Below, in pieces: positions 21,030 through 42,664 of a DNA stretch of 49,793 nucleotides; position 1 is the stretch's first letter; the number at the start of each line of letters is the position of its first letter. The notes beneath the pieces were generated by a model. It was given only the letters and a program-made list of their open reading frames with translations, ran no database searches and was not told where the DNA came from. A program made the translations under genes and the position numbers. Source of the stretch: Sedimentisphaerales bacterium (GTDB lineage Bacteria; Planctomycetota; Phycisphaerae; Sedimentisphaerales; Anaerobacaceae). The stretch spans positions 1 through 49,793 of the forward strand of contig JAFGPJ010000114.1 of the NCBI GenBank assembly GCA_016936275.1. Reading direction: 5' to 3'.

Positions 21030-21524
21030 TTAACCACCCTTGTTCTGTTTCGTGTCCCAGTGGGCCTTAACGTCGCCTTTGGGTGCGCCGGTTGCGTGGT
21101 CGGTGAGGGTGTAGATCCATTCGATCTTGCCATAGTTGAAGCTTACACTTTCGACAGGTAGCGCTTCACCGCTTGCCGAGCCGCCTGGCCTAACGCTGCT
21201 GACAATCACATCCGACATCGTAAATTCCATATACTTCGTTTTGTCCTTCGTCGCACGGCACAACTCCACTTGGATTTTCTTGATGTGCTCTCCAGTGCAG
21301 CAAGCCAATGCCAGCTTCGGCGAAGATTTGTCGAGTGCCTTTACAACAGAAAAATCCTGGTGGTCACACCGCTGGGAAGAGGCGGCGCCGCCGCTGCTTC
21401 TCGACCCCGATGACATCTGAGAAAGACCGTGATTGAACGACGATATCTCAATCCAATCTTTATGCTTGTCGTCGGTGCTCTCACCCGGTATTACGTCAAT
21501 TTTCAAAAACGCATCAAAAGCCAT
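21030..21524 (-). CDS. hcp: T6SS inner tube protein Hcp (TssD)
   Basis: MAFDAFLKIDVIPGESTDDKHKDWIEISSFNHGLSQ is the canonical Hcp1-family N-terminus. It is 164 aa, with an aaggaaaggag RBS. Confidence 0.93.
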   Translation of the reverse strand: MAFDAFLKIDVIPGESTDDKHKDWIEISSFNHGLSQMSSGSRSSGGAASSQRCDHQDFSVVKALDKSSPKLALACCTGEHIKKIQVELCRATKDKTKYMEFTMSDVIVSSVRPGGSASGEALPVESVSFNYGKIEWIYTLTDHATGAPKGDVKAHWDTKQNKGG

Positions 21525-21635: not shown

Positions 21636-23138
21636 TTAACTACCACTCTTGACCGAAGGCAGCTTGGATACCAGTCGCAGCGATACAGAAAGACCTTCGA
21701 GCTGGTAATGAGGTCTGAGGTAAAACTTGGCCGAGTAATAGCCAGGGTCTCCTTCCACCTCGTCAACTACAACTTCTGCCGCCGCCAGAGGATACTGGGC
21801 TTTAGTTTCCTCTGAGGCGTGCGGGTCGATTGTAACATATTTTGTTATCCATTTATTGAGCCATGTCGCCATATCCTCGCGCTCTTTGAAAGAGCCAATC
21901 TTATCCCGCACGAGGCACTTGAGGTAATGTGCGAACCGGCACGTTGCGAAAAGATACGGCAGCCTCGCCGCCAGATTTGCATTTGCGGTCGCATCGGGGT
22001 CGTCATATTCGGCCGGATTTTGCAGCGACTGTGCACCAATAAAACATGCAAAATCTTCGTTCTTCCAGTGCGATAGGGGCATCATGCCGTTTTTGGCTAA
22101 TTCCGCTTCTCTTCTGTCTGTTATACCAATCTCTGTCGGGCATTTCATATCAACACCGCCGTCATCGGTTGGGAAAGTATGGCAGGGAAGCCCTTCAACT
22201 AATCCGCCGCTCTCAACTCCGCGGATATTCGCACACCACCCAAACTGCTTAAACGAACGGTTGATATTCACTCCCATTGCATACGCCGCGTTGGTCCAGA
22301 GATATTTTGAATGGTCGCCTGCCGCCGTTTCTTCCTCAAAATCAAATTCTTCGCAGGGATTTGTCTTGGCGCCGTAAGGCAGTCTGCCGAGAAACCTTGG
22401 CATTGTTAAACCAACGTACCTGGCATCATCGGATTCACGCAGAGAACGCCACGGCGCATAGTCGGCCGTCTGGAAAATCTTCGTCAGGTCACGAGGATTG
22501 CTGAGCTCCTGCCAGGAATCCATGTTCATCAATGAAGGAGCGGCTGCGCTAATAAACGGCGAATGAGCTGCTGCCGCAATCTGGGCCACTCCGCCAAGTA
22601 TCTCAACATCCGGAGGACTATGGTCAAAATAGTAGTCACCGACGAGACAGCCGTATGGTTCACCGCCCGGCGAGCCGTATTCCTCCTCGTAGAGCTTTTT
22701 GAAAAGCGGGCTTTGGTCCCAGGCAGTGCCTTTGTACTTCTTTATCGTCTTTGCCAAATCGTTCTTGCTGATATCAAGCACACGTATCTTCAGTGTTTCG
22801 TCCGTTTCAGTGTTGTTTACCATATAATGCAGACCTCGCCATGAGCCCTCAAGCGCCTGGAAATCCTCGTGATGCATTATCATATTAATCTGTTCGGACA
22901 ACTTGCGGTCTATCTCGGCAATAATCGCCTCGATTGTCGTGACTGCATCTTCGGAAACGAGTGATGTCTCCGCCAGGGCCTGCTCAGCCAGGGTTCGCAC
23001 CGCCAAGCTAATGGTCTCCTTGACATGTTCCGATTTAGGCTTAAACTCCTTCTTAAGGAGCGACTCGAACTCATTCGGCTGTATGGCTACCCCCTCAGCA
23101 CCGGCGGCCTGTCTTTGTTGTTCTTGATTTTCAACCAT
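21636..23138 (-). CDS. tssC: T6SS contractile sheath large subunit TssC (VipB)
   Basis: 500 aa, with HHEDFQALEGSWRGLHYMV, MPRFLGRLPYG, YLWTNAAYAMG and the C-terminal YYSAKFYLRPHYQLEGLSVSLRLVSKLP, all typical of VipB/TssC. The start overlaps the tssB stop. Confidence 0.95.
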   Translation of the reverse strand: MVENQEQQRQAAGAEGVAIQPNEFESLLKKEFKPKSEHVKETISLAVRTLAEQALAETSLVSEDAVTTIEAIIAEIDRKLSEQINMIMHHEDFQALEGSWRGLHYMVNNTETDETLKIRVLDISKNDLAKTIKKYKGTAWDQSPLFKKLYEEEYGSPGGEPYGCLVGDYYFDHSPPDVEILGGVAQIAAAAHSPFISAAAPSLMNMDSWQELSNPRDLTKIFQTADYAPWRSLRESDDARYVGLTMPRFLGRLPYGAKTNPCEEFDFEEETAAGDHSKYLWTNAAYAMGVNINRSFKQFGWCANIRGVESGGLVEGLPCHTFPTDDGGVDMKCPTEIGITDRREAELAKNGMMPLSHWKNEDFACFIGAQSLQNPAEYDDPDATANANLAARLPYLFATCRFAHYLKCLVRDKIGSFKEREDMATWLNKWITKYVTIDPHASEETKAQYPLAAAEVVVDEVEGDPGYYSAKFYLRPHYQLEGLSVSLRLVSKLPSVKSGS

Positions 23139-23670
23139 TGGACTTCACCTCCTTACCGCCCTCGGCGGATTCAGCTCCTGGTTTCGGCGCAGAGGTCAGG
23201 GCCGTCAGTAATGCCTTGTCTTTGAGGACCTTGGCCATCAGTTCCTCCGCACCACTTTTACCATCCATATACGACAACAAATTTGAAAGATCCGTCCGAG
23301 CCTTCAACAGCTTGTTCAAAGCATCAACCTTACGCGCTACCGCCGCCGGGGAAAAATCATCCATGCTCTCAAACGTGATGTCAACGCTCATATTGCCCTC
23401 GCCGGTTAATGCGTTCGGGACCTGGAATGCTACTCTCGGCTTCATTGCTTTGAGTCGTTCGTCGAAATTGTCGACGTCGATTCCGAGGAATTTTCGGTCT
23501 GCAACCGACGGCAAGGCCTCGGCCGGCTTGCCGGACAAATCGGCCATCACGCCCATCACGAAGGGCAGATTGACCGTTTTCTCTGCGCCGTACAGTTCCA
23601 AATCATACTCTATCTGCACACGCGGTGCTCGGTTGCGAGCTATGAATTTTTGACTGCTTTTTTTCGCCAT
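23131..23670 (-). CDS. tssB: T6SS contractile sheath small subunit TssB (VipA)
   Basis: IARNRAPRVQIEYDLELYGAEKTVNLPFVMGVMADLSG is the canonical TssB N-terminus. It is 179 aa. Confidence 0.95.
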   Translation of the reverse strand: MAKKSSQKFIARNRAPRVQIEYDLELYGAEKTVNLPFVMGVMADLSGKPAEALPSVADRKFLGIDVDNFDERLKAMKPRVAFQVPNALTGEGNMSVDITFESMDDFSPAAVARKVDALNKLLKARTDLSNLLSYMDGKSGAEELMAKVLKDKALLTALTSAPKPGAESAEGGKEVKSNG

Positions 23671-26536: not shown

Positions 26537-26703
26537 TGCTAACCGAATCAGATACACTCAGCAGCCCCAAGCCCGAAATAAGCGAAATAGGTTGTAGTCA
26601 AATTCCTATATCGTATTATCCTGCCTGAAGCTGTGCGCATTACCCCAGGCATCTCGCATCTCCACCCGCATATAACGCTTCCATAGAAAAGTTGAATAAA
26701 GTG

Positions 26704-26732
26704 TTGCGTTCGTCAAATGAATGGACTATTCT
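26704..26732 (+). promoter_or_regulatory. Sigma70-type promoter candidate for the methyltransferase gene (TTGCGT-17-TATTCT)
   Basis: ttgcgt at 26704-26709, a 17-nt spacer, and tattct at 26727-26732. If real, it argues for the ATG at 26773 rather than the TTG at 26692 as the start. Confidence 0.3.
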
Positions 26733-26772
26733 CACAGCAAATCGATTCTATATCGGTTCATTCATAATAACT

Positions 26773-28338
26773 ATGGCAAAAAACTATAAAGATAAATCGC
26801 GAGCCAAGATTGCAGCACAAACCCAAAACACAAAAGTTTTTTGTCTGGACAGGCGGTTCGACGTCAAGACGTTCAAAAGGGTAATTGAGGACGCGGGCTA
26901 CTGTGAAAAGGCGCTGGCCGAGACGCTGGGTATATCGTGTGTTCATGAACGGCAAGACGTGGATGTGGTCTATAGGCGCGTAAAAACAGACAGCCCATAT
27001 AATATCCTTGTGCGGTTATTCTGGCTCGGACTATCGGTCCCGGAGTCCATTGCTCGTAAGTCCTTGTCAGGGCTTGACATAGAGGACCTTGAAGCAATCG
27101 GCCTACTAAACCGGCACAACGGCAAAATAAGGTCTGTTGCCAGATTGGCGCCATATCATGACCTGATGCTGGCAAGCGATTTCGGACCGGAAATCCACCG
27201 CAAGCTCTCTGCAGACCACGTTCTTGGCGTAGGCGCAGCTTCCGTAACGCTGGCTAATTTAACTGTTCGCCGAAATGTTAAAATCGCTCTTGATATCGGC
27301 AGCGGCGCAGGCATACAGTCATTCCTTGCTGCACGCCACGCCGAGCATGTCGTCGGAACGGATATCAGCCAGCGGGCGATAAACTTTGCCAGATTCAATG
27401 CAATGCTGAATGACATCAGCGGTATTGAATGGCGCCAAGGCGGTCTCTACGAACCCGTCGCCGGTCAACAATTTGACCTGATTGTATCTAATCCTCCGTT
27501 TGTGATTTCCCCGGAGTCACGATTCGTCTTCCGCGACGCCGGTATGCCGGGCGATGCCATCTCAGAACAAGTAATCCGCGGGGCCGGTGAGTGGCTGAAT
27601 GCAGGCGGTTTTGCCTGTATATTGTTTAACTGGCATCACTCCGATGATACGGATTGGGATGCTCGGCCCCGTAGCTGGGTATCCAGGACCGGCTGCGATG
27701 CCTGGATGATAAGCTTCAAGTCCGCAGACCCATTGACGTATGCGGCTGAATGGCTGGGAAGCTGTGTCGGACGGAGTCAACCCGAGTATGGGAGCCGTCT
27801 GGATGAATGGATGGCGTATTACGAAAAGATGCAAATCGGGCGCATAAGCGCCGGCGCAATTATTATGCGAAAGAGACCTAATAGTTCAAACTGGTTCCAA
27901 GCACACGTTATAGACAGAGGTCGCTGTACAGGACCCGCGGCTGACCAGATTGAGCGAATATTCGCGGCTGAAGATATGCTTGAGACGCTCGACGACCGAC
28001 AGTTGCTGCAGCAGCGTCTCGCTTTCGCCAATAACCATCGTCTGGAACATCAGTTGGTGGTTGAGGACGGCCGATGGGTCATCCGTGCCGAACACCTCTA
28101 CGCCGTTAATGGCATCCCATTTGCCGGCAACGTGGATATGTATATCGCGAACCTTCTGGCCGGCTGCAACGGCAAATGGACATTAGGCGAGGTTGTCGGG
28201 AAAGCGGCCGAGCGGATACAGACCAATCGGGAAGAATTCACGCGTGCCTGTCTGGCCGCCGTCCGCAAGCTTATGCAGTCAGGATTCCTGAGTCCAGTCT
28301 CAAATCCCTGCACGTCGGTCAACCAAAAGAGTAAGTAA
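26773..28338 (+). CDS. Large class I SAM-dependent methyltransferase (NPPF-type; substrate unknown)
   Basis: Motif I is LDIGSGAGIQSFLAA. Motif IV is DLIVSNPPFV, an N-methyltransferase-type (D/N)PP(F/Y) motif as in the PrmC/RsmC/N6-adenine MTase classes. There are long N- and C-terminal extensions and no signal peptide. The start is uncertain: ATG at 26773 versus the track TTG at 26692. Confidence 0.72.
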   Translation: MAKNYKDKSRAKIAAQTQNTKVFCLDRRFDVKTFKRVIEDAGYCEKALAETLGISCVHERQDVDVVYRRVKTDSPYNILVRLFWLGLSVPESIARKSLSGLDIEDLEAIGLLNRHNGKIRSVARLAPYHDLMLASDFGPEIHRKLSADHVLGVGAASVTLANLTVRRNVKIALDIGSGAGIQSFLAARHAEHVVGTDISQRAINFARFNAMLNDISGIEWRQGGLYEPVAGQQFDLIVSNPPFVISPESRFVFRDAGMPGDAISEQVIRGAGEWLNAGGFACILFNWHHSDDTDWDARPRSWVSRTGCDAWMISFKSADPLTYAAEWLGSCVGRSQPEYGSRLDEWMAYYEKMQIGRISAGAIIMRKRPNSSNWFQAHVIDRGRCTGPAADQIERIFAAEDMLETLDDRQLLQQRLAFANNHRLEHQLVVEDGRWVIRAEHLYAVNGIPFAGNVDMYIANLLAGCNGKWTLGEVVGKAAERIQTNREEFTRACLAAVRKLMQSGFLSPVSNPCTSVNQKSK

Positions 28339-29766: not shown

Positions 29767-32553
29767 ATGGCTGAAATCACACGCACATCTTTATTCGGCA
29801 AGCTAAACAGTTTAGGTTACAAGGCCATCGAAAGCGCCACGATTTTCTGCAAAATGCGGGGTAATCCGTACGTGGAGCTGGTGCACTGGCTGCACCAGAT
29901 TCTGCATCAGCAGGACTCAGACCTTCACCGTATAATACGGCACTTCGGCATAGACCCCTCCCGGCTCGCCAAGGATATGACAGAGGAATTGGACCGGCTG
30001 CCGAGGGGAGCGACGTCGATTTCGGACCTGTCGAGCCATCTGGAAGAGGCAGTCGAACGAGGGTGGGTTTACGGGAGCTTGTTATTCGGTGAATCACAGA
30101 TTCGCACAGGGCATCTGATAGTGGGCACCCTCAAGACAAGCGGCCTCAAGAACGTTCTTCTGCGGATATCGAAGGAGTTCGACAAAATCAAACTGGAACA
30201 GTTAACCGACGATTTCGCAAAAATTGTGGGGGGTTCTCCCGAGGAATCCCTGTCTGCGACCGACGGCACTTCGCTGCGAGCCGAGGGCGAAGCCGCCGGC
30301 GGCACCTCTGAAATGGCGCCAGCGGCAATGGGCAAACAAGAGGCATTGGCGAAATTTTCTGTGGACCTGACTGCAAAGGCACGAAGCGGTGAAATGGACC
30401 CTATTGTCGGTCGCGACGTGGAAATCCGCCAGATTATCGATATTCTGATGCGTCGTCGTCAGAACAACCCGATACTTACCGGCGAGGCGGGGGTCGGGAA
30501 AACGGCAGTGGTTGAGGGTTTCGCACAGCGGATTGCCGCCGGTGATGTGCCGCCGTCGCTAAAGGACGTAACACTACGTGTGCTCGATGTAGGGCTGCTT
30601 CAGGCCGGGGCCAGTATGAAGGGCGAATTTGAAAATCGGCTTCGACAAGTCATAGAAGAGGTTCAAAGCTCACCTAAACCAATTATTCTTTTCATAGATG
30701 AAGCACATACTCTTATTGGGGCCGGAGGTTCTGCGGGGACCGGCGACGCCGCCAACTTGCTTAAGCCGGCGCTGGCTCGCGGCACATTGCGGACGATTGC
30801 GGCCACCACCTGGGCGGAGTATAAAAAATACATCGAGAAAGACCCGGCGCTTACCCGCAGATTCCAGGTAGTCAAGGTTGAAGAGCCCTCGGAAGGTAAC
30901 GCTTTGATTATGATGCGAGCAGTGGCCTCTAACTTAGAGAAGCATCACCTCGTCCAGGTACTGGACGAGGCCCTCGATGCAGCGGTCCGTCTTTCGCACC
31001 GGTATATCCCTGAGCGTCAACTGCCGGACAAAGCGGTTAGCTTGACCGATACCGCATGTGCCAGGGTTGCCATAAGCCAGCATGCCGTCCCGCCAGAGCT
31101 GGAGGACTGCCGGCGTCGAATTCAGGCGCTTGAAACGGAGCTGGAAATCATTGGCAGAGAAACGTCAATGGGAATGGACCACCGTTCCCGCGAATCCGAA
31201 AACACAGAGAAACTCGAAACGGAACACAAAAGATTAGCCGAACTGGAAGGTCGCTGGTCAAAAGAAAAGGAGCTGGTCAATGCTGTCCTGGATATTCGGG
31301 CCAGGTTGCGCAAAACCGGCGGGGGCACTGTCGAAAAGACAGAGATTGCCGGAAAAGAATCTGAGAAAACCAAGGACCGTGCCAAGGACGTGCGTCAGGC
31401 CGATGCAAGTCAGCCGGCTGAGGTCGCAGCCGCAGGTTCAGCCGACGCGGAGGAAAAAGAGGACAGAGAAGGATTACTCAAACAACTCATTTCGCTGCAG
31501 AAACAGCTCAGGGAGCTGCAAGGAGAAAGGCCACTGATTCTTCCCTGTGTTGATGCAGTAGCGGTTGGTTCAGTGGTTGCCGATTGGACCGGGATTCCGG
31601 TCGGGGGAATGGTAAAGAATGATATCGAGGCGGTTCTGCATCTGGAGGACAAGCTTCGGCAGCGTGTAATAGGCCAGGACCATGCCCTGGCGGCAGTTGC
31701 CAAACGCATCAGAACATCCCGTGCCGGCGTGGAGAATCCGAACAAGCCGATTGCTGTGATGTTCCTGGTCGGTCCGAGCGGCGTGGGAAAAACCGAGACG
31801 GCGATTGCCTTGGCCGAAGCCCTGTACGGCGGTGAGAGCAACCTGATAACCATCAATATGAGTGAGTTCCAGGAAGCCCACACGGTTTCAACACTTAAGG
31901 GTTCGCCTCCCGGGTACGTCGGCTATGGCGAAGGAGGCGTCCTGACCGAGGCGGTGCGTCGGCGCCCTTATAGCATTGTTTTGTTAGACGAAGTCGAGAA
32001 GGCGCATCGCGACGTCCACGAGATATTTTTCCAGGTGTTCGACAAAGGCCGGATGGAAGACGCCGAAGGACGCCTGATAGATTTCAAGAATACAATTATT
32101 CTGCTGACCAGCAACGTCGGCACCGACCTCATTATGGAGATGTTCAAAGACCCGAAGCTGAGGCCTGATTCTGAAGGGATATGTAAGGCCCTCCGCAAGC
32201 CCCTGCTTAAGGTCTTTCCCGCCGCCCTTCTCGGTCGTCTCGTTGTCGTGCCCTACTACCCAATTAGTGATGAAACGATGCGGCTCATTATTCGCCTCCA
32301 GTTGAACCGAATTGGGCGTCGGACCAGGGAGAATCATAAGATACCGTTCAGCTTCGATGATAAAGTCGTGGAGCTTATTGCCAGCCGTTGCACTGAGCTC
32401 GAAAGCGGAGCTCGGATGGTGGACGCCATTCTGACCAATACGCTGCTTCCGGAAATCAGCCAGGAGCTCCTGACCCGGCTGATGGAAGGTAAAATCGCTA
32501 AACGCGTGCATATAGGGACCAAAGACAGCGAGTTTACTTATTCGTTCGACTAA
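29767..32553 (+). CDS. clpV: T6SS AAA+ sheath-recycling ATPase ClpV (TssH)
   Basis: 928 aa with a Clp N-domain. Two AAA+ modules carry Walker A motifs GEAGVGKTA and GPSGVGKTE, and Walker B motifs ILFIDEAH and IVLLDEVEKAH. A coiled-coil middle insert is present. It lies directly upstream of vgrG. Confidence 0.93.
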   Translation: MAEITRTSLFGKLNSLGYKAIESATIFCKMRGNPYVELVHWLHQILHQQDSDLHRIIRHFGIDPSRLAKDMTEELDRLPRGATSISDLSSHLEEAVERGWVYGSLLFGESQIRTGHLIVGTLKTSGLKNVLLRISKEFDKIKLEQLTDDFAKIVGGSPEESLSATDGTSLRAEGEAAGGTSEMAPAAMGKQEALAKFSVDLTAKARSGEMDPIVGRDVEIRQIIDILMRRRQNNPILTGEAGVGKTAVVEGFAQRIAAGDVPPSLKDVTLRVLDVGLLQAGASMKGEFENRLRQVIEEVQSSPKPIILFIDEAHTLIGAGGSAGTGDAANLLKPALARGTLRTIAATTWAEYKKYIEKDPALTRRFQVVKVEEPSEGNALIMMRAVASNLEKHHLVQVLDEALDAAVRLSHRYIPERQLPDKAVSLTDTACARVAISQHAVPPELEDCRRRIQALETELEIIGRETSMGMDHRSRESENTEKLETEHKRLAELEGRWSKEKELVNAVLDIRARLRKTGGGTVEKTEIAGKESEKTKDRAKDVRQADASQPAEVAAAGSADAEEKEDREGLLKQLISLQKQLRELQGERPLILPCVDAVAVGSVVADWTGIPVGGMVKNDIEAVLHLEDKLRQRVIGQDHALAAVAKRIRTSRAGVENPNKPIAVMFLVGPSGVGKTETAIALAEALYGGESNLITINMSEFQEAHTVSTLKGSPPGYVGYGEGGVLTEAVRRRPYSIVLLDEVEKAHRDVHEIFFQVFDKGRMEDAEGRLIDFKNTIILLTSNVGTDLIMEMFKDPKLRPDSEGICKALRKPLLKVFPAALLGRLVVVPYYPISDETMRLIIRLQLNRIGRRTRENHKIPFSFDDKVVELIASRCTELESGARMVDAILTNTLLPEISQELLTRLMEGKIAKRVHIGTKDSEFTYSFD

Positions 32554-32651: not shown

Positions 32652-34742
32652 ATGGCAATAACTCAGGAAAACAGGGAGATTGCGATAGCGACCCCTTTAG
32701 GGGATGACGTTCTTTTGCTTAAAAGCATTTCGGGCACAGAGCAGCTTGGCAGGCCATTTGAGTTTCATCTTGAACTGGCCAGCGAGGATAACCAGATTAA
32801 ACCTCAGGACATTGTCGGCCAGAACGTGACAATCCGGCTCAACCTTTTCGAAAAAGACAAGATTCGCTATTTCAACGGCTATATCAGCCGATTTGTCCAG
32901 ACGGCCGGGGCCGGCCGATTGGCAGGATACCGCGCAACCGTCGTGCCATGGCTGTGGTTTTTGACCCGAACCGCTGATTGTCGTATATTCCAGAAAATGA
33001 CGGTTCCCGATATTATCAAGCAGGTTTTTCGAGACCTTGGATTTACCGATATTGAGGACGCCCTCAGCAGCAGCTATCGAACCTGGGAGTATTGCGTTCA
33101 ATACCGCGAGACGGACTTCAACTTTGTCAGCCGACTTATGGAGCAGGAGGGAATATATTACTTTTTCAAGCACGAGAACGGCAAACACTCGCTGGTCCTG
33201 GCCGATTCGGCCAGCGCGCATCAGCCATATCCCGATTATGACCAAATCAAATACCGGCCCCACGGCAGTCAGGTCGATAACGACAAGTGCATTTCCGACT
33301 GGATAGTTGAAACCTGTGTTCAGCCCGGTTCGTATGCCCTGAAGGATTTTGACTTCAAGAACACTAAAAAGGACCTCCAGTCAAGGGCGAACTTGATTCA
33401 ACAACACGCCGCGGCGGACTTCGAGATATACGATTACCCCGGCGAATACACCGAATCCCCTGACGGCGACGAATATGCCAAGAAACGTATCGAGGAGATG
33501 CACACGCAGTATGAGGTGGCCACGGCCGATTCCGAAGCCAGGGGCATTAGTGCCGGCTGCACGTTCAACTTCATCGAGCATCCCCGCGACGACCAGAACA
33601 AGCAATACCTTATTACCTCTGCAAGCTATAATATAGACGCCGGCGACTTCTACTCGCAGGAAAAAGGCGGCGCCTGTGCCTATTCGTGCAGCTTTGCTGC
33701 TATCGATGCAACGCAGCAGTTCCGTTCAATGCGCATCACTCCCAAACCCTCAATTCCAGGCCCACAAACGGCTATGGTTGTCGGTCCATCGGGTGAAGAG
33801 GTCCACACCGACGAATATGGCCGGGTCAAGGTGCAATTCCACTGGGACAGGCACGGTAAAGCCGACGAAAACAGCTCCTGCTGGATTAGGGTGGCGCAGG
33901 TCTGGGCCGGCAAGAAATGGGGCGCGATGTATATCCCGCGAATCGGCCAGGAGGTTATTGTTGAGTTCCTCGAGGGCGACCCGGACCAGCCGATTATTAC
34001 GGGCCGGGTCTATAACGCCCAGGCAATGCCGCCTTACGACCTGCCGACCAATAAGACGATGTCAACGCTCAAATCCGACTCCAGCAAGGGCAGCGGGGGC
34101 TTCAACGAAATCCGCTTCGAGGACAAAAAGGGTGATGAGCAAATCTTCATACACGCCGAAAAAAACGAGGATATCAGGGTCAAAAACGACTGTCTCGAAT
34201 GGATTGGAAATGAGCGGCATTTGATAGTTAAAAAAGACCAGCTCGAACAAGTCGATGGCGATAAGCACCTGACGGTCAAGGGAGACCAGAACGAAAAGAT
34301 AAACGGAACCATATCCGTTGAGGCGGGTATGGATATGCAGCAGAAGGTTGGTATGAAGCACGCCCTTGATGCAGGGATGGAGATTCACCTAAAGGGCGGA
34401 ATGAAGGTAATTGTCGAAGCCGGAATGCAGCTAACGCTCAAAGGAGCTGGTGGCTTTGTTGATATCGGCCCAGCAGGCGTAACGATACAAGGCAACCTAG
34501 TGAATATAAATAGCGGCGGCGCTGCTGGCGCCGGCTCGGGCTGCTCGCCTGATGCCGCCAAGGCCCCGAAAGAAGCCGATAAAGCCGACCCGGGCGAAAA
34601 GCTTGAGCCGGCAAAACCGCCCAAACCGCCAACGCCCGTTACTTTCAGCCCGCAGGCGACAACTATGCAACAGGCGGCTAAGGACGGCACACCATTTTGT
34701 GAGGAATGTGAAAAGGCAAAGAAACAACAGCAAGCCGGTTAA
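32652..34742 (+). CDS. vgrG: T6SS spike protein VgrG (TssI) with a Lys/Pro-rich C-terminal tail
   Basis: IATPLGDDVLLLKSISGTEQLGRPFEFHLELAS is the gp27-like N-terminus. Also present are GRVKVQFHWDR and WIRVAQVWAGKKWGAMYIPRIGQEVIVEFLEGDPDQPIITGRVYN (the gp5 OB-fold signature), followed by beta-helix repeats. The tail is APKEADKADPGEKLEPAKPPKPPTPV...GTPFCEECEKAKKQQQAG. Confidence 0.93.
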   Translation: MAITQENREIAIATPLGDDVLLLKSISGTEQLGRPFEFHLELASEDNQIKPQDIVGQNVTIRLNLFEKDKIRYFNGYISRFVQTAGAGRLAGYRATVVPWLWFLTRTADCRIFQKMTVPDIIKQVFRDLGFTDIEDALSSSYRTWEYCVQYRETDFNFVSRLMEQEGIYYFFKHENGKHSLVLADSASAHQPYPDYDQIKYRPHGSQVDNDKCISDWIVETCVQPGSYALKDFDFKNTKKDLQSRANLIQQHAAADFEIYDYPGEYTESPDGDEYAKKRIEEMHTQYEVATADSEARGISAGCTFNFIEHPRDDQNKQYLITSASYNIDAGDFYSQEKGGACAYSCSFAAIDATQQFRSMRITPKPSIPGPQTAMVVGPSGEEVHTDEYGRVKVQFHWDRHGKADENSSCWIRVAQVWAGKKWGAMYIPRIGQEVIVEFLEGDPDQPIITGRVYNAQAMPPYDLPTNKTMSTLKSDSSKGSGGFNEIRFEDKKGDEQIFIHAEKNEDIRVKNDCLEWIGNERHLIVKKDQLEQVDGDKHLTVKGDQNEKINGTISVEAGMDMQQKVGMKHALDAGMEIHLKGGMKVIVEAGMQLTLKGAGGFVDIGPAGVTIQGNLVNINSGGAAGAGSGCSPDAAKAPKEADKADPGEKLEPAKPPKPPTPVTFSPQATTMQQAAKDGTPFCEECEKAKKQQQAG

Positions 34743-37869: not shown

Positions 37870-38169
37870 ATGCCTCCTGCAGCAAGAGTTGGTGATATGC
37901 ACGTCTGCCCGATGCAAACACCGGGCGTACCGCCCATTCCGCACGTCGGCGGGCCAATTTTGCCGCCGGGCTGCCCGACCGTGCTGATTGGTATGATGCC
38001 CGCCGCACGGGTTGGTGATATGGCCACCTGCGTCGGGCCGCCGGATGTGATAGCCAAAGGGTCCGCTACGGTAATGATTGGAATGATGCCCGCCGCACGC
38101 ATAGGCGATACGACCGCTCACGGCGGCTCTATCGTTGTCGGCTGCCCTACCGTCATGATTGGCGGCTGA
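37870..38169 (+). CDS. Minimal PAAR-domain spike-tip protein (99 aa)
   Basis: There are three PAAR motifs: MPPAARVGDMHVCP, GMMPAARVGDMATCVGP and GMMPAARIGDTTAHGG. The protein ends GCPTVMIGG and has no extension domain. Confidence 0.93.
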   Translation: MPPAARVGDMHVCPMQTPGVPPIPHVGGPILPPGCPTVLIGMMPAARVGDMATCVGPPDVIAKGSATVMIGMMPAARIGDTTAHGGSIVVGCPTVMIGG

Positions 38170-38186
38170 CGGCGATTACCCCACAA

Positions 38187-39752
38187 CTATCGCCAGGGGC
38201 CGGCTAATGGGGCGAGGGGAGAGGAAATCGACTGAAAACGGGGGAGACGAACCGAATCCCGGCCTTTTACGGAAACTACCGGCATAAGCCCCTTGTCAAT
38301 AAGGATACCAAAAGCCCTCTCCGTGAGGATTGTCTCAGCACAGGGGGTAACGTGCTTTTGGCCATCGGACTCGTATATGTGCATCGGCAAGCCCGACAGG
38401 TCGCAGCCGAGGCCGTTTGTAAGGTTCCAGCCGAATTCACTAAAGGCCTGGGCCAAGAGGCAGGCACATAAGCCAGCGGAATTGCCCCATAGATATTGCT
38501 CGTGACCGGTCAAAGGCGAAAATTCCTCAAAACTGAACCGCTCAACGGGGTCGGTCTTGCTGCCGTAAGGCAGGCGCAGCAGGAACCGGGGCAGCAATAG
38601 GCCGATATAGGCGGCCTCAGGCGTGCCTCGAAGCTGCTGCCATAATTTTAGGGCGTCCGGCCTGGATTGCCATTGCCAGTCATTCGGGTCGGGCGTGGCG
38701 GCAAGCGACGGGCAGCCGGCAAAGTGAGAATCAGCACAAGCGACCAATGGCGCACCGGCGGCCTGGGCAATTTGGGCAAGCTGATGCAGCAAGGCGATAT
38801 CCTCAGAGGTCTGGTCAAAGGTGTAGCAGCCGACCAAAAGGGCGTAGGGATTTGCACCCGGGACGCCGACGCTTCGCTCGACAATAAGCCGATATATACC
38901 TGCTGATTGCAGACCCTCCTGCGAGGCCAAATCCGCTACCAGTTCCGCCTTGCTGATGTCGATTATATATATTTTGAGCGTTTCGTTTGTTTCGACCTGG
39001 CTGACTATGAATCGAAGCAACAGCCATGCCGCCTCAAGCTCCTTGAAGTCCGGCTGATGCAGAATCGCCCGCATCTGGCCGCTGATGGCCTGGTCAACCT
39101 GGGCAACAAGCTCTGGCTGCTGCGGGTCGGTGGCGGGAACGATGTAGGGCTTTACGACCTCGGCAATGAGCTTTTCTATATTGATTTGTCGGCCTGTCGG
39201 ACTGAAAGACGGTTTTTTACCCGGCTGCTTTCCAAGCAGTCGCTCGATTGTATCAGCGTCGGGTTCTGCTTTTGCCGGAGTGCCTGGTGTTTCTCCGGCC
39301 TCTAATTTGCCGGCTTCCTGACCACCCATTAGCCATGACCGCACCTGCGAAGCCGCCTCGGCAAACGTGGCTGGGTCCTGAAGGCGATTTCGGAGCATCT
39401 TTAGCTTCTGAAAGATTTCCAGACGGTCGAAAATCCGGTCCGGGTGAAAGTCGGTTAGCTCTCCAAATCCAATTGCTATACGAGAACCATCCCCACCGCC
39501 TACGGGTATATTAAGCTCGCAGCCAAGCTGCTTAGGCAGATTCTCCAGGTTGTCAACGTCAACCGCTATTCGCCTACTGGCAGCAAGCAAAGGACCGGTT
39601 TCGCACAAGCCGCGGTTGCCCCGTCCGCTGAAATCGGAAAGAACGGCTATGCAAAATGGCGTGTTTTCCATGGCCTTGCGGGGTGCAAATGACGTTTGAG
39701 CGCCTAATTCAAATTCAAAATCCATCCCCCTCGAAGAGCTCTGTATAGGCAT
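38187..39752 (-). CDS. Single-chain TssB-TssC-like contractile-sheath paralog lacking the TssC C-terminal region (521 aa)
   Basis: Residues ~30-130 align with the cluster's own TssB: TPFCIAVLSDFSG / LPFVMGVMADLSG; VDVDNLENL / IDVDNFDERL; IGFGELTDFHPDRI / ITFESMDDFSPAAV. Residues ~165-510 align with TssC: HQPDFKELEAAW / HHEDFQALEGSW; ETNETLKIYIIDISKAEL / ETDETLKIRVLDISKNDL; LLPRFLLRLPYGSKTDPVERFSFEE / TMPRFLGRLPYGAKTNPCEEFDFEE; YLWGNSAGL / YLWTNAAYA; SEFGW / KQFGW. The ORF stops where TssC still has about 115 more residues. Confidence 0.82.
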   Translation of the reverse strand: MPIQSSSRGMDFEFELGAQTSFAPRKAMENTPFCIAVLSDFSGRGNRGLCETGPLLAASRRIAVDVDNLENLPKQLGCELNIPVGGGDGSRIAIGFGELTDFHPDRIFDRLEIFQKLKMLRNRLQDPATFAEAASQVRSWLMGGQEAGKLEAGETPGTPAKAEPDADTIERLLGKQPGKKPSFSPTGRQINIEKLIAEVVKPYIVPATDPQQPELVAQVDQAISGQMRAILHQPDFKELEAAWLLLRFIVSQVETNETLKIYIIDISKAELVADLASQEGLQSAGIYRLIVERSVGVPGANPYALLVGCYTFDQTSEDIALLHQLAQIAQAAGAPLVACADSHFAGCPSLAATPDPNDWQWQSRPDALKLWQQLRGTPEAAYIGLLLPRFLLRLPYGSKTDPVERFSFEEFSPLTGHEQYLWGNSAGLCACLLAQAFSEFGWNLTNGLGCDLSGLPMHIYESDGQKHVTPCAETILTERAFGILIDKGLMPVVSVKGRDSVRLPRFQSISSPLAPLAGPWR

Positions 39753-39860
39753 AACTTTTCACTCCATAACGGAACCTGATTCTGCCGAGAAACGCCTGAA
39801 TGTTTCTTTTTTCAAAATAGCTAAGGTTTATCATCTTGAGCGAAAGCAATTTCAGCGGTA

Positions 39861-39889
39861 ATTGTAACACAACTTATGAAAATACTCAA
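39861..39889 (-). promoter_or_regulatory. Sigma70-type promoter candidate for the sheath paralog (TTGAGT-17-TACAAT, TGn extended -10)
   Basis: The minus strand reads ttgagt (39889-39884), a 17-nt spacer ending in tgt, then tacaat (39866-39861). It lies about 105 nt upstream of the ATG at 39752. Confidence 0.45.
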
Positions 39890-40091: not shown

Positions 40092-42056
40092 ATGTCGTCT
40101 TCTGATACCTATAACCGTATTAAAACAGTACCTAATGGCTATGTCGCCATACCCATCACAGAAGACCAAAAATCGGCGATATTAAAAATATGCGTCCTGA
40201 TAAGACCCGACCCCGACCCTGTTGGCGGTCACCTCGTCGTCATCCGGGACACAACAGACGCCAGGGTGTTTATGGGGTGCGTCATTGACATTTGCGGATG
40301 CATTCATGAGTGGCTGGAATTGTGGGTTCAGAATACCGGGCAATTAATTGACAGGGCGTCTGCATATCGCCAGTCGCTTTCAAACGCCATGCTGGATGAC
40401 CGATGGCGTCAGCAATGTCAGGCATTTGAACAGCTCGATGAGGGAGTGGTGGTGAAAACCGGCTGGGAGTCCGAGCATCCCCTGCCGATGTTCTTAGACA
40501 TCTCTACATGTTCGCCGCTCCATCCGACTGATACTAATTCCGGCGCACCGTGGAAGCTGTGCAAGGATGAAGGTTTGCTACAGCAGAAGGGCCTGCCGAG
40601 CTATTGCGGTTCGCTGCATCGCTACCTATACATACCGGCGGCGGGCACTGATTCACAGTTTGCTCCCGTTACCCCGGGGGCACCAACGAACGCTTTCACA
40701 AAACCGATGTCCGAGATTTGCGGCGACCCCCGGCAGATTATCCCCTTTAATCCCGGAGCGGGTCTGATGCTGGTAAAGAAACACAATCCCATCGGGCTGG
40801 AGACCTTCATTGATATTCTAAGCGGCAGTATATGGGACGGGCTAAAACATGGAAGGTCGGTCCTTGACCTCGGCGAACAGGTTGACGCGCTGAGGAAGGA
40901 CAAGACCATTTTGATTGCGAATGGCCGACTTTTCCTGGACTCTCAGGGCCGGCGAGGGCGACTGGTCGAGACATTTCACTTAAAGCTTCGACTGCTCGCT
41001 GACATTGTATCTTCCGTTCATTCGATGGTGCATCATCTCCAACGACCGCTTCTAAACATCAATCCGAACAACTGGCAGATTAAGCTCGGTGAGCCCGGAC
41101 GTGGGCTGCCTTTCTTATGGACGGCCAAGCCGGTGCTTAGCGACCCAGGTGACGCAATTCCACTGGCAATCGAAAAAACCGACGTGCAATATTATCTGCA
41201 ATCGTCCGCTCCCGGAACATCGATATATCGGCCGGCGATTATTTCTCTGCCAACCAGAGGACATGCATCCGTCCGTATAAGGCAGGTCTTGCCCGACACC
41301 GACGTTGCAATAATCGTTGAGGGTACATTTACAACCCAGGAACGTATCGAGATAGCCAGTCGCGATCTCGTCTGGTTTCGACTTAACCTTACTCATGGCA
41401 GCGTAAATCTGTATGCACATATCGAAGCGGACTCGGCGATGGCGGCCGGTGAGTGGCGATTTCGAACTGTCACACAGAGCGTTAATGATGTCGAGGTTTC
41501 GGATTTGCACGCCGCCGAAGGAGTGCCCATGCCAGGCATTCCGTTCGAGATTATACCGCTTTTGAGCACCCCCTGTGACCTGTACTCACTGGCGGTCGTA
41601 GCAGTGAGGGTTCTTCTTGTTGATGATACTACGACTTTGCCCGTGGCACTTGATGAAATTCTCAGTCTTTCACGCCAAACACGGACTGATTCAGATGCGT
41701 CCACCAGCTTGGATGCCCGTATTAGCGATATATTCAGCAAGGACAACCGATGGCTTGAATCGCTGGGGCCGCACCATTTAGCTTTTGACAAAATGACCCC
41801 TGACGAAGCTTTTGGTCTGATTCCACACGAGTTGTGGTGGAAGACAGTGGCCATAATCCTGCGGATGTTCCCAGGGGCGGGGCCGGAAAGTGAATGCAAA
41901 GATTTTGGCGACGCCCAACAAGGGGGTCTCCACAAGGTTTTTGAACGAACTATGGCCGATCTGGATAACCTTATATTAAGAACTCGCGGCCTTATAATAA
42001 CGGACTGGAAATCAAACCAGGAAGTTGCCGATGTCATACAAAGGTATCTGTCGTAA
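40092..42056 (+). CDS. Hypothetical 654-aa cytoplasmic protein, T6SS-linked; possibly contains a highly degenerate kinase-like fold
   Basis: An intact ORF with no TM helix or signal peptide. LRLLADIVSSVHSMVHHLQRPLLNINPNNWQIKLG loosely resembles a kinase alpha-E/catalytic-loop segment, and PCDLYSLAVVAVRVLL resembles kinase subdomain IX. The spacing between them is atypically long, so the resemblance is weak. Confidence 0.55.
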   Translation: MSSSDTYNRIKTVPNGYVAIPITEDQKSAILKICVLIRPDPDPVGGHLVVIRDTTDARVFMGCVIDICGCIHEWLELWVQNTGQLIDRASAYRQSLSNAMLDDRWRQQCQAFEQLDEGVVVKTGWESEHPLPMFLDISTCSPLHPTDTNSGAPWKLCKDEGLLQQKGLPSYCGSLHRYLYIPAAGTDSQFAPVTPGAPTNAFTKPMSEICGDPRQIIPFNPGAGLMLVKKHNPIGLETFIDILSGSIWDGLKHGRSVLDLGEQVDALRKDKTILIANGRLFLDSQGRRGRLVETFHLKLRLLADIVSSVHSMVHHLQRPLLNINPNNWQIKLGEPGRGLPFLWTAKPVLSDPGDAIPLAIEKTDVQYYLQSSAPGTSIYRPAIISLPTRGHASVRIRQVLPDTDVAIIVEGTFTTQERIEIASRDLVWFRLNLTHGSVNLYAHIEADSAMAAGEWRFRTVTQSVNDVEVSDLHAAEGVPMPGIPFEIIPLLSTPCDLYSLAVVAVRVLLVDDTTTLPVALDEILSLSRQTRTDSDASTSLDARISDIFSKDNRWLESLGPHHLAFDKMTPDEAFGLIPHELWWKTVAIILRMFPGAGPESECKDFGDAQQGGLHKVFERTMADLDNLILRTRGLIITDWKSNQEVADVIQRYLS

Positions 42057-42113
42057 AAGCGTCAAAAAAAATATGTCGGGTAAACATTTGTGGGGAATTG
42101 AAAGGGATTGACA

Positions 42114-42635
42114 ATGAGAAAAGCATTATTGAAAGGTCACGTCTTTGCGGTGCTTTTGGTTAATCTTCTTCTGGCAGGAGGATGCCAAATTGGCAGGCGT
42201 GTTAACGTAATTGCTACCGATGAGATTTGCAGGAAATCGGTTGAGGTCCATCTGGTAGAAATCAACAGATTCGAAAAGGACCTATGGGAGCAGATGTCTA
42301 TGACCGATTACTGGACCCCCGGAAACCAAGTGCGACAGAGCGCCAAGCACTATACCTGGGCCATCCAATTCGGACAAGGGGCTTGCAAGCAGATTCTCAG
42401 CCCGAGGCATCCGATTCAAAAAATATGGCGGGACAGGAACGCGGAATACCTGTTCGTTCTGGCGGACCTGCCCGGCACATTTTCCGACATGCCCGGTAAT
42501 GCCGACGCAAGGCGCGTGCGGCTGCCCGCTCTGGACTCAAAATGCTGGGGATTATTACAGAGAGAAATCAATATCAGCATCGAAAGCGGCAAGGTTGTCC
42601 CTTTAACCATCTCAAAGTCAAAAAACTGTGATTAG
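42114..42635 (+). CDS. tssJ: TssJ-like T6SS outer-membrane lipoprotein
   Basis: The ATG at 42114 gives MRKALLKGHVFAVLLVNLLLAGGC, a lipobox (LAGG|C). The ~173-aa size and the segment pattern SVEVHLVEINRFEKDLWEQMSMTDYW ... AEYLFVLADLPG ... REINISIESGKV parallel the TssJ pattern (V.V..Y.L.....F....F..L ... Y.GV.A.(Y/F)R ... L.LD). It is the only lipoprotein of suitable size in the cluster and would complete the 13-gene core. Confidence 0.55.
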   Translation: MRKALLKGHVFAVLLVNLLLAGGCQIGRRVNVIATDEICRKSVEVHLVEINRFEKDLWEQMSMTDYWTPGNQVRQSAKHYTWAIQFGQGACKQILSPRHPIQKIWRDRNAEYLFVLADLPGTFSDMPGNADARRVRLPALDSKCWGLLQREINISIESGKVVPLTISKSKNCD

Positions 42636-42664
42636 AATCTTGTTTCTTTTCCGGTCACGAAAGT

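What the first reader, a model, noticed from the sequence alone, without database searches (positions are those of the whole stretch)
38187..39752. Single-chain TssB-TssC sheath paralog, C-terminally truncated and separately transcribed
Besides the canonical tssB/tssC pair, the cluster encodes one 521-aa polypeptide with two homologous parts. Its first ~130 residues are homologous to TssB. Residues ~165-510 are homologous to TssC residues ~60-385. The motif pairs are listed in the feature entry and are visible by direct comparison with the two genes in this same window.

The ORF ends where TssC still has about 115 residues. That missing stretch includes the C-terminal ...YYSAKFYLRPHYQLEGLSVSLRLV segment. 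In VipA/VipB and other contractile sheaths, the terminal strands are exchanged between neighbouring subunits to knit the sheath mesh (established structural knowledge).

A covalently fused protomer that can accept strands but cannot donate the C-terminal one could act in several ways: as a sheath-end cap, as a baseplate-proximal starter ring, or as a length or assembly regulator. This functional reading is inference. I do not know of a characterised T6SS component of this type. The gene has its own good promoter match (39861-39889) and is divergent from the tssJ/pseudokinase unit.
Basis: partly seen in the sequence, partly recalled or inferred. Interest (0 to 1): 0.82.

Follow-up and report, generated by a model that had tools for sequence, protein, structure and literature searches.

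The report
Non-polymerising fused TssB-TssC sheath paralog
Next to a complete type VI secretion gun, this genome encodes a conserved single-chain copy of the sheath building block that has lost the inner domain needed to polymerise; this undescribed accessory family occurs in hundreds of species and probably caps the sheath or links it to its recycling ATPase ClpV.

Summary
ORF 38187-39752 (-) encodes a 521-aa protein. Residues 22-133 match TssB 25-139, and residues 160-513 match TssC 14-376. The last ~125 TssC residues (Pfam VipB_2, the gp25-like inner Domain 1) are absent.

It is not a remnant:
- dN/dS is 0.16-0.18.
- The C-terminal ...LAGxW tail is conserved.
- At least 150 clusters (50% identity) share the architecture.
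- More than 512 species genomes across at least 6 phyla carry it, usually inside T6SS clusters that also hold canonical tssB/tssC.

By published sheath structures, the strand-accepting sheet lies in the missing domain. A probable N-terminal donor arm is kept (pattern in 110/131 members, 24 expected).

New finding: the flexible linker carries the TssC N-terminal LLDEII-type helix, which is the ClpV docking site in the Vibrio class. Its class matches the cognate TssC in 19/19 loci. The motif is amplified to 16 or more copies in one Rhodobacterales variant.

Best reading: a mesh-terminating sheath-subunit mimic that engages ClpV or an unknown partner. This is inferred, not shown. I found no paper, curated family model or solved structure for it. 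It is a new variant of a known kind, of moderate to high interest.

The parts
38187..39752 (-). Whole gene: 521-aa single-chain TssB-TssC(delta Domain 1) paralog, stop codon included
   Evidence: ORF list. Pfam VipA + VipB N-domain, no VipB_2. AF2 model pLDDT 90.1, pTM 0.88. Foldseek matches TssC/VipB chains at rmsd 2.5-2.6 A over ~303 columns.
39699..39725 (-). Residues 10-18 (MDFEFELGA): putative N-terminal donor arm, the positional equivalent of TssB strand b1
   Evidence: An alternating hydrophobic pattern occurs in 110 of 131 family members, against 24 expected from shuffles. It peaks 20 aa upstream of the PF(R/C)I anchor; canonical TssB b1 lies 18 aa upstream. Profile methods do not align it, and the AF2 monomer gives it low pLDDT.
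39354..39689 (-). Residues 22-133: TssB-like half (Domain 2 strands and Domain 3 helices)
   Evidence: hhalign to the TssB alignment, columns 25-139 of 178, E 4e-19. Pfam VipA on 27-132.
39183..39326 (-). Residues 143-190: flexible Pro/Glu/Lys-rich linker joining the two halves
   Evidence: Block-mean pLDDT 57-71 over residues 141-190, with under 50 only at 179-184, inside an otherwise >90 model. Length and sequence vary across the family.
39225..39251 (-). Residues 168-176 (TIERLLGKQ): LL motif, homologous to the TssC N-terminal LLDEII-type helix
   Evidence: hhalign places the family consensus 'lLd~lL' on TssC 'lldqiv'. R171, L172, L173 and G174 are invariant in close relatives. The motif class matches the cognate TssC in 19/19 loci.
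38223..39182 (-). Residues 191-510: TssC-like Domain 3 helices and Domain 2 core
   Evidence: Pfam VipB on 214-504. hhalign to TssC up to column 375. phmmer to PDB 5n8n_B, 5urw, 3j9g.
38190..38222 (-). Residues 511-521 (SPLAPLAGPWR): family-specific C-terminal tail that replaces TssC Domain 1
   Evidence: L516, G518 and W520 are at least 90% conserved over 145 diverse members, all of which end here or within about 12 residues. The stop codon lies 17 bp from the convergent PAAR gene, leaving no room for a lost domain.
39861..39889 (-). Sigma-70-like promoter match (TTGAGT-17-TACAAT, with TG)
   Evidence: Consensus scan, 9/12 matches; 5 sites found in the region against 2.4 expected. Weak evidence only.
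39762..39765 (-). GGAG Shine-Dalgarno-like sequence 9 nt upstream of the ATG
   Evidence: Read directly from the sequence.
23131..23670 (-). Canonical tssB (context): its N-terminus SSQKFIARNRAPRVQ is identical to the P. aeruginosa HsiB1 TagJ-binding peptide
   Evidence: Pfam and NCBIfam hits. N-terminal sequence compared with the peptide quoted in PMC4239648.
21636..23138 (-). Canonical tssC (context): full length with the VipB_2 domain; N-terminal motif NEFESLLKKEFKPKS
29767..32553 (+). clpV (context): N-domain about 80% identical to P. aeruginosa ClpV1-N, with Arg6 and Asp87 conserved (charged-groove, TagJ class)
   Evidence: Pfam. phmmer to 4uqw_A, E 5e-75, with the alignment shown.

Best explanation
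What it is (well supported): a conserved accessory T6SS protein that reproduces the outer two-thirds of a TssB-TssC sheath protomer in one chain. It has the Domain 2 core and the Domain 3 helices. It lacks the inner gp25-like Domain 1, which forms the inter-subunit 'handshake' mesh and faces the Hcp tube.

How it most likely works (inferred): it cannot be a repeating sheath subunit. It keeps two interaction elements.
(i) An N-terminal strand-like arm at the position of the TssB donor strand.
(ii) The amphipathic LLDEII-type helix of the TssC N-terminus, displayed on a flexible internal linker. In Vibrio-class systems that helix docks the ClpV N-domain.

I propose that it attaches by its arm and its Domain 2/3 surfaces to a sheath end. 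This would be the distal, growing end, because sheath linkers point toward the baseplate. With no acceptor domain it would end the mesh there. It would then present a constitutively exposed docking helix for ClpV (or, in ClpV1/TagJ-class systems such as this window, for an as yet unknown partner). In short, it would be a chain-terminating, disassembly-coupling sheath mimic.
For: Architecture and boundaries.

Fold: AF2 pLDDT 90, pTM 0.88, matching VipB/TssC at 2.5 A.

Loss of the polymerisation module:
- VipB_2 is absent.
- The HsiC1 C-terminus is essential for tubule formation, while its N-terminal 212 aa suffice for HsiB1 binding (PMC3597794).
- Composition of the handshake sheet (PMC5807055).
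- Domain 1 is TssE-like and accepts linkers that point toward the baseplate (PMC5813253).

Retained elements:
- N-arm pattern in 110/131 members against 24 expected, sharply positioned.
- The LL motif aligns to the TssC LLDEII position. Its class tracks the cognate TssC in 19/19 loci.
- The motif lies in a low-confidence linker.
- It is amplified to 16 or more copies in the Leisingera variant, 5 in Qingshengfaniella and 2 in Eleftheria, and extra copies are inserted in a loop of P0199/P0272.
- LLDEII is the ClpV-N docking helix, with Kd of about 26-39 uM, so multivalency matters (PMC4239648; PMC5048182).

Functional gene:
- dN/dS 0.16-0.18.
- At least 150 clusters at 50% identity with end-to-end alignment.
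- More than 512 species genomes.
- Embedded in T6SS clusters with canonical tssB/tssC in about 50 of 84 loci, in recurrent syntenies.
- All 23 plasmid records carrying the module show a second TssC-like match. In the one region read in full (Leisingera) that match is a canonical tssC with tssB.
Against: - No binding, localisation or phenotype data exist. Only a monomer model could be made.
- The N-arm is a pattern, not a profile-detectable homology. 14 of 145 members have short N-termini.
- A subunit without Domain 1 has no tube contact. It is unknown whether Domain 2/3 contacts plus one arm would hold it on a sheath end.
- This window's system is ClpV1/TagJ class (Arg6 and Asp87 conserved). 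In that class the TssC N-terminal helix was not needed for ClpV1 binding. The ClpV link is therefore weakest for this very protein.
- Some members lie far from any T6SS gene.
- TssA and TagA already occupy the distal end in model systems.
Confidence: 0.38

Rival explanations
1. Soluble ClpV (or partner) buffer or decoy. The protein never joins the tail. Its stable TssBC-like body simply displays the TssC N-terminal docking helix, titrating or pre-positioning ClpV and so tuning when contracted sheaths are disassembled.
For: The LL motif sits on a flexible linker and co-varies with the cognate TssC. It is strongly amplified in Rhodobacterales variants. The gene follows clpV in at least 16 loci.
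Against: A single motif binds ClpV-N only at tens of uM, so most one-motif members would be poor decoys. The Domain 2 core and the positioned N-arm are conserved beyond what a mere scaffold would need. The window's ClpV is of the class that does not rely on this helix.
Confidence: 0.2
2. Baseplate 'ring zero' component. TssE supplies only a Domain-1-like module and this protein supplies only Domains 2 and 3. Together they would form a pseudo-protomer on which the first true sheath ring is laid.
For: The domain contents are complementary. TssE is proposed to accept linkers from ring 1, and the fused protein has a candidate donor arm. The gene often lies next to vgrG, tssK or PAAR.
Against: No co-variation or conserved adjacency with tssE. 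Well-studied T6SS baseplates assemble without such a protein. It would compete with ring-1 TssB arms for the same acceptor. The ClpV-type motif and its amplification are not explained.
Confidence: 0.12
3. Assembly chaperone or anti-polymerisation factor. It binds free TssB/TssC heterodimers, or nascent aberrant polymers, through Domain 2/3 surfaces or LL-motif helices. That would prevent tube-independent polymerisation or feed subunits to the growing end.
For: It keeps the Domain 2/3 surfaces used for lateral sheath contacts. The repeated LL helices resemble the TssC helices that pack into the Domain 3 bundle of neighbouring protomers.
Against: Purely analogical, with no partner evidence. In studied systems ClpV already suppresses non-productive tubules (my knowledge of Kapitein et al. 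2013, not read here).
Confidence: 0.1
4. One reading: an acceptor-competent but donor-deficient protomer that caps or starts the sheath.
For: The C-terminal donor strand is indeed missing.
Against: The acceptor strands lie in the same missing Domain 1.
Confidence: 0.03
5. Decaying remnant of a second T6SS sheath operon (fusion and truncation by mutation).
For: It is truncated relative to TssC. Two loci show split ORFs (L064, L077).
Against: dN/dS is 0.16-0.18. The end point and the LAGxW tail are the same in 145 diverse members. There are at least 150 clusters and more than 512 species. The fold is predicted with confidence.
Confidence: 0.01

Closest known systems
Canonical TssB/TssC (VipA/VipB, HsiB1/HsiC1) sheath protomer
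   Same: The Domain 2 core and Domain 3 helices are homologous (35% identity to the window's TssC, 26% to its TssB). The predicted fold is the same (rmsd 2.5 A to VipB). It has the same N-terminal LLDEII-type helix motif and sits in the same gene clusters.
   Different: It is one chain instead of two. It lacks the gp25-like Domain 1 (PF18945), the C-terminal donor strand and the conserved RVRPPRVQITYDVE arm sequence. It has a family-specific ...LAGxW tail. It scores below the NCBIfam equivalog cut-offs. It is predicted unable to polymerise.
TssC40 / ImpD (Atu4340) of Agrobacterium/Rhizobium, a second TssC paralog required for Hcp secretion (PMC3702570)
   Same: It is an extra, non-redundant TssC-like gene inside a T6SS cluster beside the true tssB-tssC pair.
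   Different: The truncation is the opposite one. The Rhizobium homolog (L088:6360-7748, 462 aa) keeps VipB and VipB_2 but lacks the N-terminal ~55 residues, and it has no TssB part. It is a different family.
TssE / phage T4 gp25 (sheath initiator)
   Same: It too is a partial sheath-protomer mimic used at a sheath end.
   Different: TssE is Domain-1-like only (an acceptor). This protein is Domains 2+3 only, with a possible donor arm. No sequence similarity was detected.
Accessory sheath paralogs of extracellular contractile injection systems (Afp3/Afp4, Pvc3/Pvc4) and tail terminator or cap proteins (T4 gp15, Afp16; T6SS TssA/TagA). Recalled from my own knowledge; not tested here.
   Same: They are specialised sheath-related or end-binding proteins that occupy the first or last rings and define sheath ends.
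   Different: The eCIS paralogs retain the conserved C-terminal core and are part of the mesh. Terminators, TssA and TagA are unrelated folds. Foldseek gave only weak matches to eCIS and phage sheaths (TM 0.2-0.28).

Membership tests
TssC, T6SS contractile sheath large subunit (TIGR03355 equivalog) | Full-length match above the curated cut-off (271.5 bits) | tested here: not met
   233.1 bits, matching model positions 23-343 of 473 only. The window's real TssC scores 727 bits.
TssC, T6SS contractile sheath large subunit | N-terminal/middle domain PF05943 (Domain 2 core) | tested here: met
   E 4.6e-70 on residues 214-504. Foldseek rmsd 2.5 A to VipB.
TssC, T6SS contractile sheath large subunit | C-terminal gp25-like domain PF18945 with handshake strands and the C-terminal linker | tested here: not met
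   No hit. The profile alignment stops at TssC column 375 of 499. The ORF ends 17 bp from the PAAR gene.
TssC, T6SS contractile sheath large subunit | N-terminal amphipathic helix (LLDEII-type region) | tested here: met
   Aligned by hhalign. The class matches the cognate TssC in 19/19 loci. Here the motif is internal, not N-terminal.
TssC, T6SS contractile sheath large subunit | Polymerises with TssB into tubules around Hcp | not testable with these tools
   Predicted not to, because the HsiC1 C-terminus is essential for tubule formation (PMC3597794).
TssB, sheath small subunit (TIGR03358 equivalog) | Match above the cut-off (97.25 bits) as a separate ~170-aa protein | tested here: not met
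   27.7 bits. Homology covers TssB 25-139 only and is fused to the TssC-like part.
TssB, sheath small subunit | Conserved N-terminal linker strand (RVRPPRVQITYDVE) | tested here: inconclusive
   The sequence is not conserved or aligned, but a hydrophobic-alternating pattern occupies the equivalent position in 110/131 members.
TssC40/ImpD-type TssC paralog | VipB + VipB_2 domains, N-terminal ~55 aa missing, no TssB part | tested here: not met
   The Rhizobium homolog has both domains. The fused family has the opposite truncation.
ClpV substrate/ligand of the LLDEII class | The helix binds the hydrophobic groove of the ClpV N-domain | not testable with these tools
   The motif is present. The window's ClpV has the charged-groove residues Arg6 and Asp87, a class in which this binding mode was not seen.

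The most novel reading that the evidence does not exclude
The family is a dedicated T6SS sheath terminator, a dominant-negative-like subunit. It binds the open distal handshake sites through its donor arm and stops mesh growth because it has no acceptor domain. It then provides a six-fold ring of exposed docking helices from which ClpV starts disassembly. In the variants with long repeat arrays, those helices could also concentrate partners or subunits at the sheath end, much as formin does for actin. This would be a previously unknown principle of sheath length and turnover control, used by T6SSs in Planctomycetota, Acidobacteriota, Desulfobacterota, Rhodobacterales and other groups.
Probability: 0.25. 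Interest if true: 0.85.

Novelty: new variant of a known kind. Interest (0 to 1): 0.62.

Why it matters
It is still open how T6SS sheaths stop growing, and how ClpV tells contracted sheath from extended sheath or free subunits. The known end-binding factors (TssA, TagA) are absent from, or different in, many lineages. This is a large, ancient and so far unstudied family, present in more than 500 species, including culturable Leisingera/Phaeobacter and Eleftheria terrae. It has a clear structural logic: a sheath subunit minus the mesh domain, plus the ClpV-type docking helix. That gives direct experiments. Its naturally non-polymerising single-chain TssBC body may also be useful as a soluble tool for studying sheath-ClpV recognition. 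Current annotation pipelines call it 'sheath large subunit/ImpC', which miscounts sheath genes.

Tried and rejected
- First AF2 run on 24 close homologs gave a poor model (pLDDT 59.6). It was replaced by a 145-sequence alignment (pLDDT 90.1).
It was repeated with 10 sequences.
- hhalign of the TssC alignment against the window's TssE, meant to locate the gp25-like acceptor by sequence, gave no signal. The location of the acceptor therefore rests on the Pfam VipB_2 definition and on published structures.
- Clustering all neighbours within 6 kb of the fused gene in 84 loci found no conserved non-T6SS partner. The clusters at 'relative position 0' are overlapping-frame artefacts.
- Ten literature searches found no paper on a natural TssB-TssC fusion. 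The hits for 'fused TssB' are fluorescent tags. Two PMC ids (Kudryashev 2015, Pietrosiuk 2011) are not held.
- TssC40/ImpD was considered as the same family and rejected.
- The decay hypothesis was rejected.
- Plasmid hits H24-H30 with 90-92% coverage are adjacent tssB+tssC genes read through by tblastn, not fusions.
- One translation was done in the wrong frame and redone.
Full report
1. What is in the sequence

The ORF at 38187..39752 on the minus strand encodes 521 aa from an ATG. A GGAG lies 9 nt upstream, and a modest sigma-70-like match (9/12, with TG) lies at 39889-39861. It converges on a PAAR gene (37870-38169) with only 17 bp between the two stops, so no lost C-terminal exon can hide downstream.

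The window holds a complete T6SS:
- tssA 23745-24818
- tssB 23131-23670
- tssC 21636-23138
- hcp 21030-21524
- tagJ 20109-20936
- tssE, tssF and tssG
- an unknown 312-aa ORF
- tssK, tssL and a 1439-aa tssM
- clpV 29767-32553
- vgrG 32652-34742
- a DUF4123 gene and a PAAR gene

2. Domain boundaries

- Pfam finds T6SS_VipA on residues 27-132 and the VipB N-domain on 214-504. It finds no VipB_2, the gp25-like C-terminal domain, which the window's real TssC does have.
- The NCBIfam equivalog models for TssC and TssB both match, but below their cut-offs.
- BLASTP gives 35% identity to the window's TssC (215-512 vs 72-375) and 26% to its TssB.
- I built alignments of the family (145 sequences, A4) and of the canonical TssC and TssB encoded next to family members (A5, A6). 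With these, hhalign aligns fused 22-133 to TssB 25-139/178 (E 4e-19) and fused 157-510 to TssC 16-375/499 (E 1e-66).
- The canonical TssC runs on for about 125 more residues, ending ...YYSAKFYLRPHYQLEGLSVSLRLVSKLPSVKSGS.

One correction matters: the TssC-like part begins near TssC residue 15-20, not 60, so it includes the N-terminal helix motif.

3. Not a remnant, but a large old family

- The word-indexed search returned more than 120 proteins of 510-536 aa at 58-86% identity from Planctomycetota MAGs.
- The exhaustive search of 50%-identity representatives returned 150 of 150 top hits with the same architecture. Nearly all were of similar length (about 480-535 aa, a few fragments and longer variants) and aligned end to end at 37-61% identity. 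All had E <= 1e-99, whereas the same-genome TssC scores only 190 bits.
- A scan of one genome per species found more than 512 carriers. The best 80 span Planctomycetota, Acidobacteriota, Desulfobacterota, Nitrospirota, Gemmatimonadota, Rokubacteria and Gammaproteobacteria.
- Plasmids of cultured Leisingera, Phaeobacter, Ruegeria and Eleftheria terrae also carry the module.
- All members stop at the same place, with a conserved ...RFQSxAxPxxxLAGRW tail.
- dN/dS against the two closest DNA relatives is 0.16-0.18.

4. Genomic context

In about 50 of 84 loci the gene lies within 10 kb of T6SS genes, always alongside canonical tssB and tssC where the contig reaches them. The syntenies recur:
- Acidobacteria: tssK<- ->FUSED tssB tssC hcp tagJ tssA tssE tssF tssG clpV
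- Desulfobacterota and Rhodobacterales: ...tssG clpV FUSED vgrG
- Planctomycetes: either FUSED-> <-(323-aa ORF) tssM tssL tssK, or the window's own arrangement

In other loci it stands alone among housekeeping genes. No non-T6SS neighbour is conserved. All 23 plasmid records with the module show a second TssC-like match. In the Leisingera region, the one read in full, that match is a canonical tssC with tssB.

5. Structure

With the 145-sequence alignment, AlphaFold2 gives pLDDT 90.1 and pTM 0.88. Confidence is low only for residues 1-16 and for the 144-190 linker. Foldseek superposes the model on VipB/TssC chains of five sheath structures at 2.5-2.6 A over about 303 columns, and nothing else matches convincingly. 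The protein is thus a single-chain TssB-TssC body. The fusion point joins the TssB C-terminal tail and the TssC N-terminal tail, both of which are untraceable in the TssB1C1 cryo-EM map (PMC5807055).

- In TssB1C1 the handshake sheet is made of TssC b11-b12 plus donated TssC b13 and TssB b1. It lies in the inner Domain 1.
- Domain 1 is the part structurally homologous to TssE/gp25, which 'accepts the linkers'. [quoted passage not shown]
- The Pfam gp25-like VipB_2 domain is exactly what is missing.
- The C-terminus of HsiC1 is experimentally essential for tubule formation, whereas its N-terminal 212 aa suffice to bind HsiB1 (PMC3597794).

So the protein lacks both the acceptor and the C-terminal donor, and it should not polymerise or touch Hcp. 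This is an inference from homology. I could not locate the acceptor by sequence comparison with TssE.

7. What is retained: a likely N-terminal arm

The canonical TssB arm sequence (RVRPPRVQITYDVE) is not conserved, and profile methods do not align the N-terminus. However, 110 of 131 family members with at least 15 N-terminal residues carry an alternating hydrophobic pattern, against 24 expected from shuffles. The pattern is sharply positioned about 20 residues upstream of the PF(R/C)I anchor; TssB b1 sits 18 residues upstream. In the window this is DFEFEL (residues 11-16). A subunit that can donate but not accept would, given the linker polarity, bind on the distal side of a ring and end the mesh.

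8. What is retained: the TssC N-terminal LL motif

- hhalign places the family's linker consensus 'lLDxlLG' on the TssC 'LLDQIVE' helix. This is the LLDEII motif that docks into the ClpV N-domain groove in V. cholerae-class systems (PMC4239648; PMC5048182).
- In 17 of 17 loci where TssC reads LLDQIVEQGR, the fused linker reads GSLLD[EQD]xxE.
- In the 2 loci where TssC reads EFxSLLxxExxPKS (this window and a Sedimenticola), the fused linker reads [IF][EQ]RLLGK.
- The motif sits in the low-confidence linker, so it is probably always exposed. The sheath's own copy is thought to be hidden until contraction.
- In Rhodobacterales the module is embedded in 1063-1370-aa proteins. Their acidic extensions contain at least 16 (Leisingera) or 5 (Qingshengfaniella) strict copies of LDxLLGxL, against a shuffle mean below 1.
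- Eleftheria has two extra C-terminal copies, and P0199/P0272 have one or two copies inserted in a loop.
- Independent multiplication of the motif argues that presenting it is central to function. Multivalency fits a weak (26-39 uM) helix-groove interaction with a hexameric partner.

Caveat: the window's ClpV N-domain is about 80% identical to P. aeruginosa ClpV1-N and keeps Arg6 and Asp87. In that TagJ-associated class the TssC N-helix was dispensable for ClpV1 binding. For this particular protein the partner of the motif is therefore unknown.

9. Comparison with known systems

- It is homologous to TssB and TssC but fails the defining tests for either: both equivalog cut-offs, the VipB_2 domain, and a separate small subunit.
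- The only described extra TssC paralog I found, Agrobacterium TssC40/ImpD, is required for Hcp secretion (PMC3702570). It has the opposite truncation, with VipB and VipB_2 present and the N-terminus missing, so it is a different family.
- TssE is the complementary 'Domain 1 only' mimic.
- No Pfam or NCBIfam model, PDB entry or paper specific to this architecture was found (and ten literature searches).
- Public annotations call it 'sheath large subunit', 'ImpC' or 'sheath domain-containing protein'.

10. Verdict

The identity and the anatomy are solid. The function is inferred. I favour a chain-terminating, ClpV/partner-engaging sheath mimic (confidence about 0.38). The alternatives are a purely soluble ClpV decoy (0.2), a baseplate ring-zero partner of TssE (0.12) and an assembly chaperone (0.1). 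Decay is excluded. This is a new variant of a known kind, widespread and testable in cultured hosts.

Noticed in passing
window 29767-30270 (clpV N-domain) and 23596-23670 (tssB N-terminus): In this Planctomycete-like contig, the ClpV N-domain is about 80% identical to P. aeruginosa ClpV1-N (4UQW, E 5e-75). The TssB N-terminus contains SSQKFIARNRAPRVQ, identical to the HsiB1 peptide that binds TagJ. That is unusually high conservation of the H1-T6SS ClpV1/TagJ/TssB interface across phyla.
   Followed up: partly
L085:17661-21773 (Leisingera plasmid NC_023136.1); L087:4498-7689; L086:11944-13722: Giant variants of the family. The VipA-VipB_N module is flanked by long acidic disordered regions built from tandem LDxLLGxL-type repeats (at least 16 strict copies in Leisingera). 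Eleftheria terrae has a 592-aa form with two C-terminal copies.
   Followed up: partly
window 25460-26536 (+): A 358-aa protein with an eCIS_core domain (PF13699, E 8e-28) sits between tssA and a methyltransferase gene inside the T6SS cluster. This domain is normally associated with extracellular contractile injection system loci.
   Followed up: no
window 26692-28338 (+); also L020, L032, L045, L053, L055, L089: A PrmA/MTS-type methyltransferase with DUF7059 and DUF7782 recurs within a few kb of the fused gene, or in T6SS clusters, in several phyla. It may be a T6SS-associated protein methyltransferase.
   Followed up: no
window 9225-13544 (tssM), 8231-9202 and 15691-16629: Only the N-terminal ~450 aa of the 1439-aa TssM match IcmF/TssM models (below the NCBIfam cut-off), and no TssJ was detected by Pfam or NCBIfam. 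Two unknown ORFs are syntenic in related Planctomycete clusters: 323 aa after tssM (8 loci) and 312 aa between tssG and tssK (6 loci). They may be lineage-specific membrane-complex or baseplate parts.
   Followed up: partly
window 40092-47062 (+): Three ORFs diverge from the fused gene: 654 aa and 175 aa with no Pfam or NCBIfam hit, and 1465 aa with a C-terminal FGE-sulfatase domain. The trio keeps this position in the closest relatives (L005, L013, L089, L090).
   Followed up: partly
L037, L044, L045 (Acidobacteria loci), upstream of the fused gene: Two separate TssK-like ORFs lie in tandem regions next to the fused gene (for example L044: 4782 and 8340), suggesting a duplicated baseplate connector in these clusters.
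   Followed up: no
L053 (JAIWHJ010000401.1): A family member lies on a 2.8-kb contig, coverage 0.55 according to the contig name, binned as a Promethearchaeota (Asgard) MAG. It is most likely a binning contaminant rather than an archaeal T6SS gene.
   Followed up: no
L088:6360-7748 (Rhizobium beringeri plasmid): The ImpD/TssC40-type second TssC (462 aa) keeps both VipB domains but lacks the N-terminal ~55 residues that carry the ClpV/TssB-binding helices. This is the mirror-image truncation of the family studied here, and it too has no known mechanism.
   Followed up: partly
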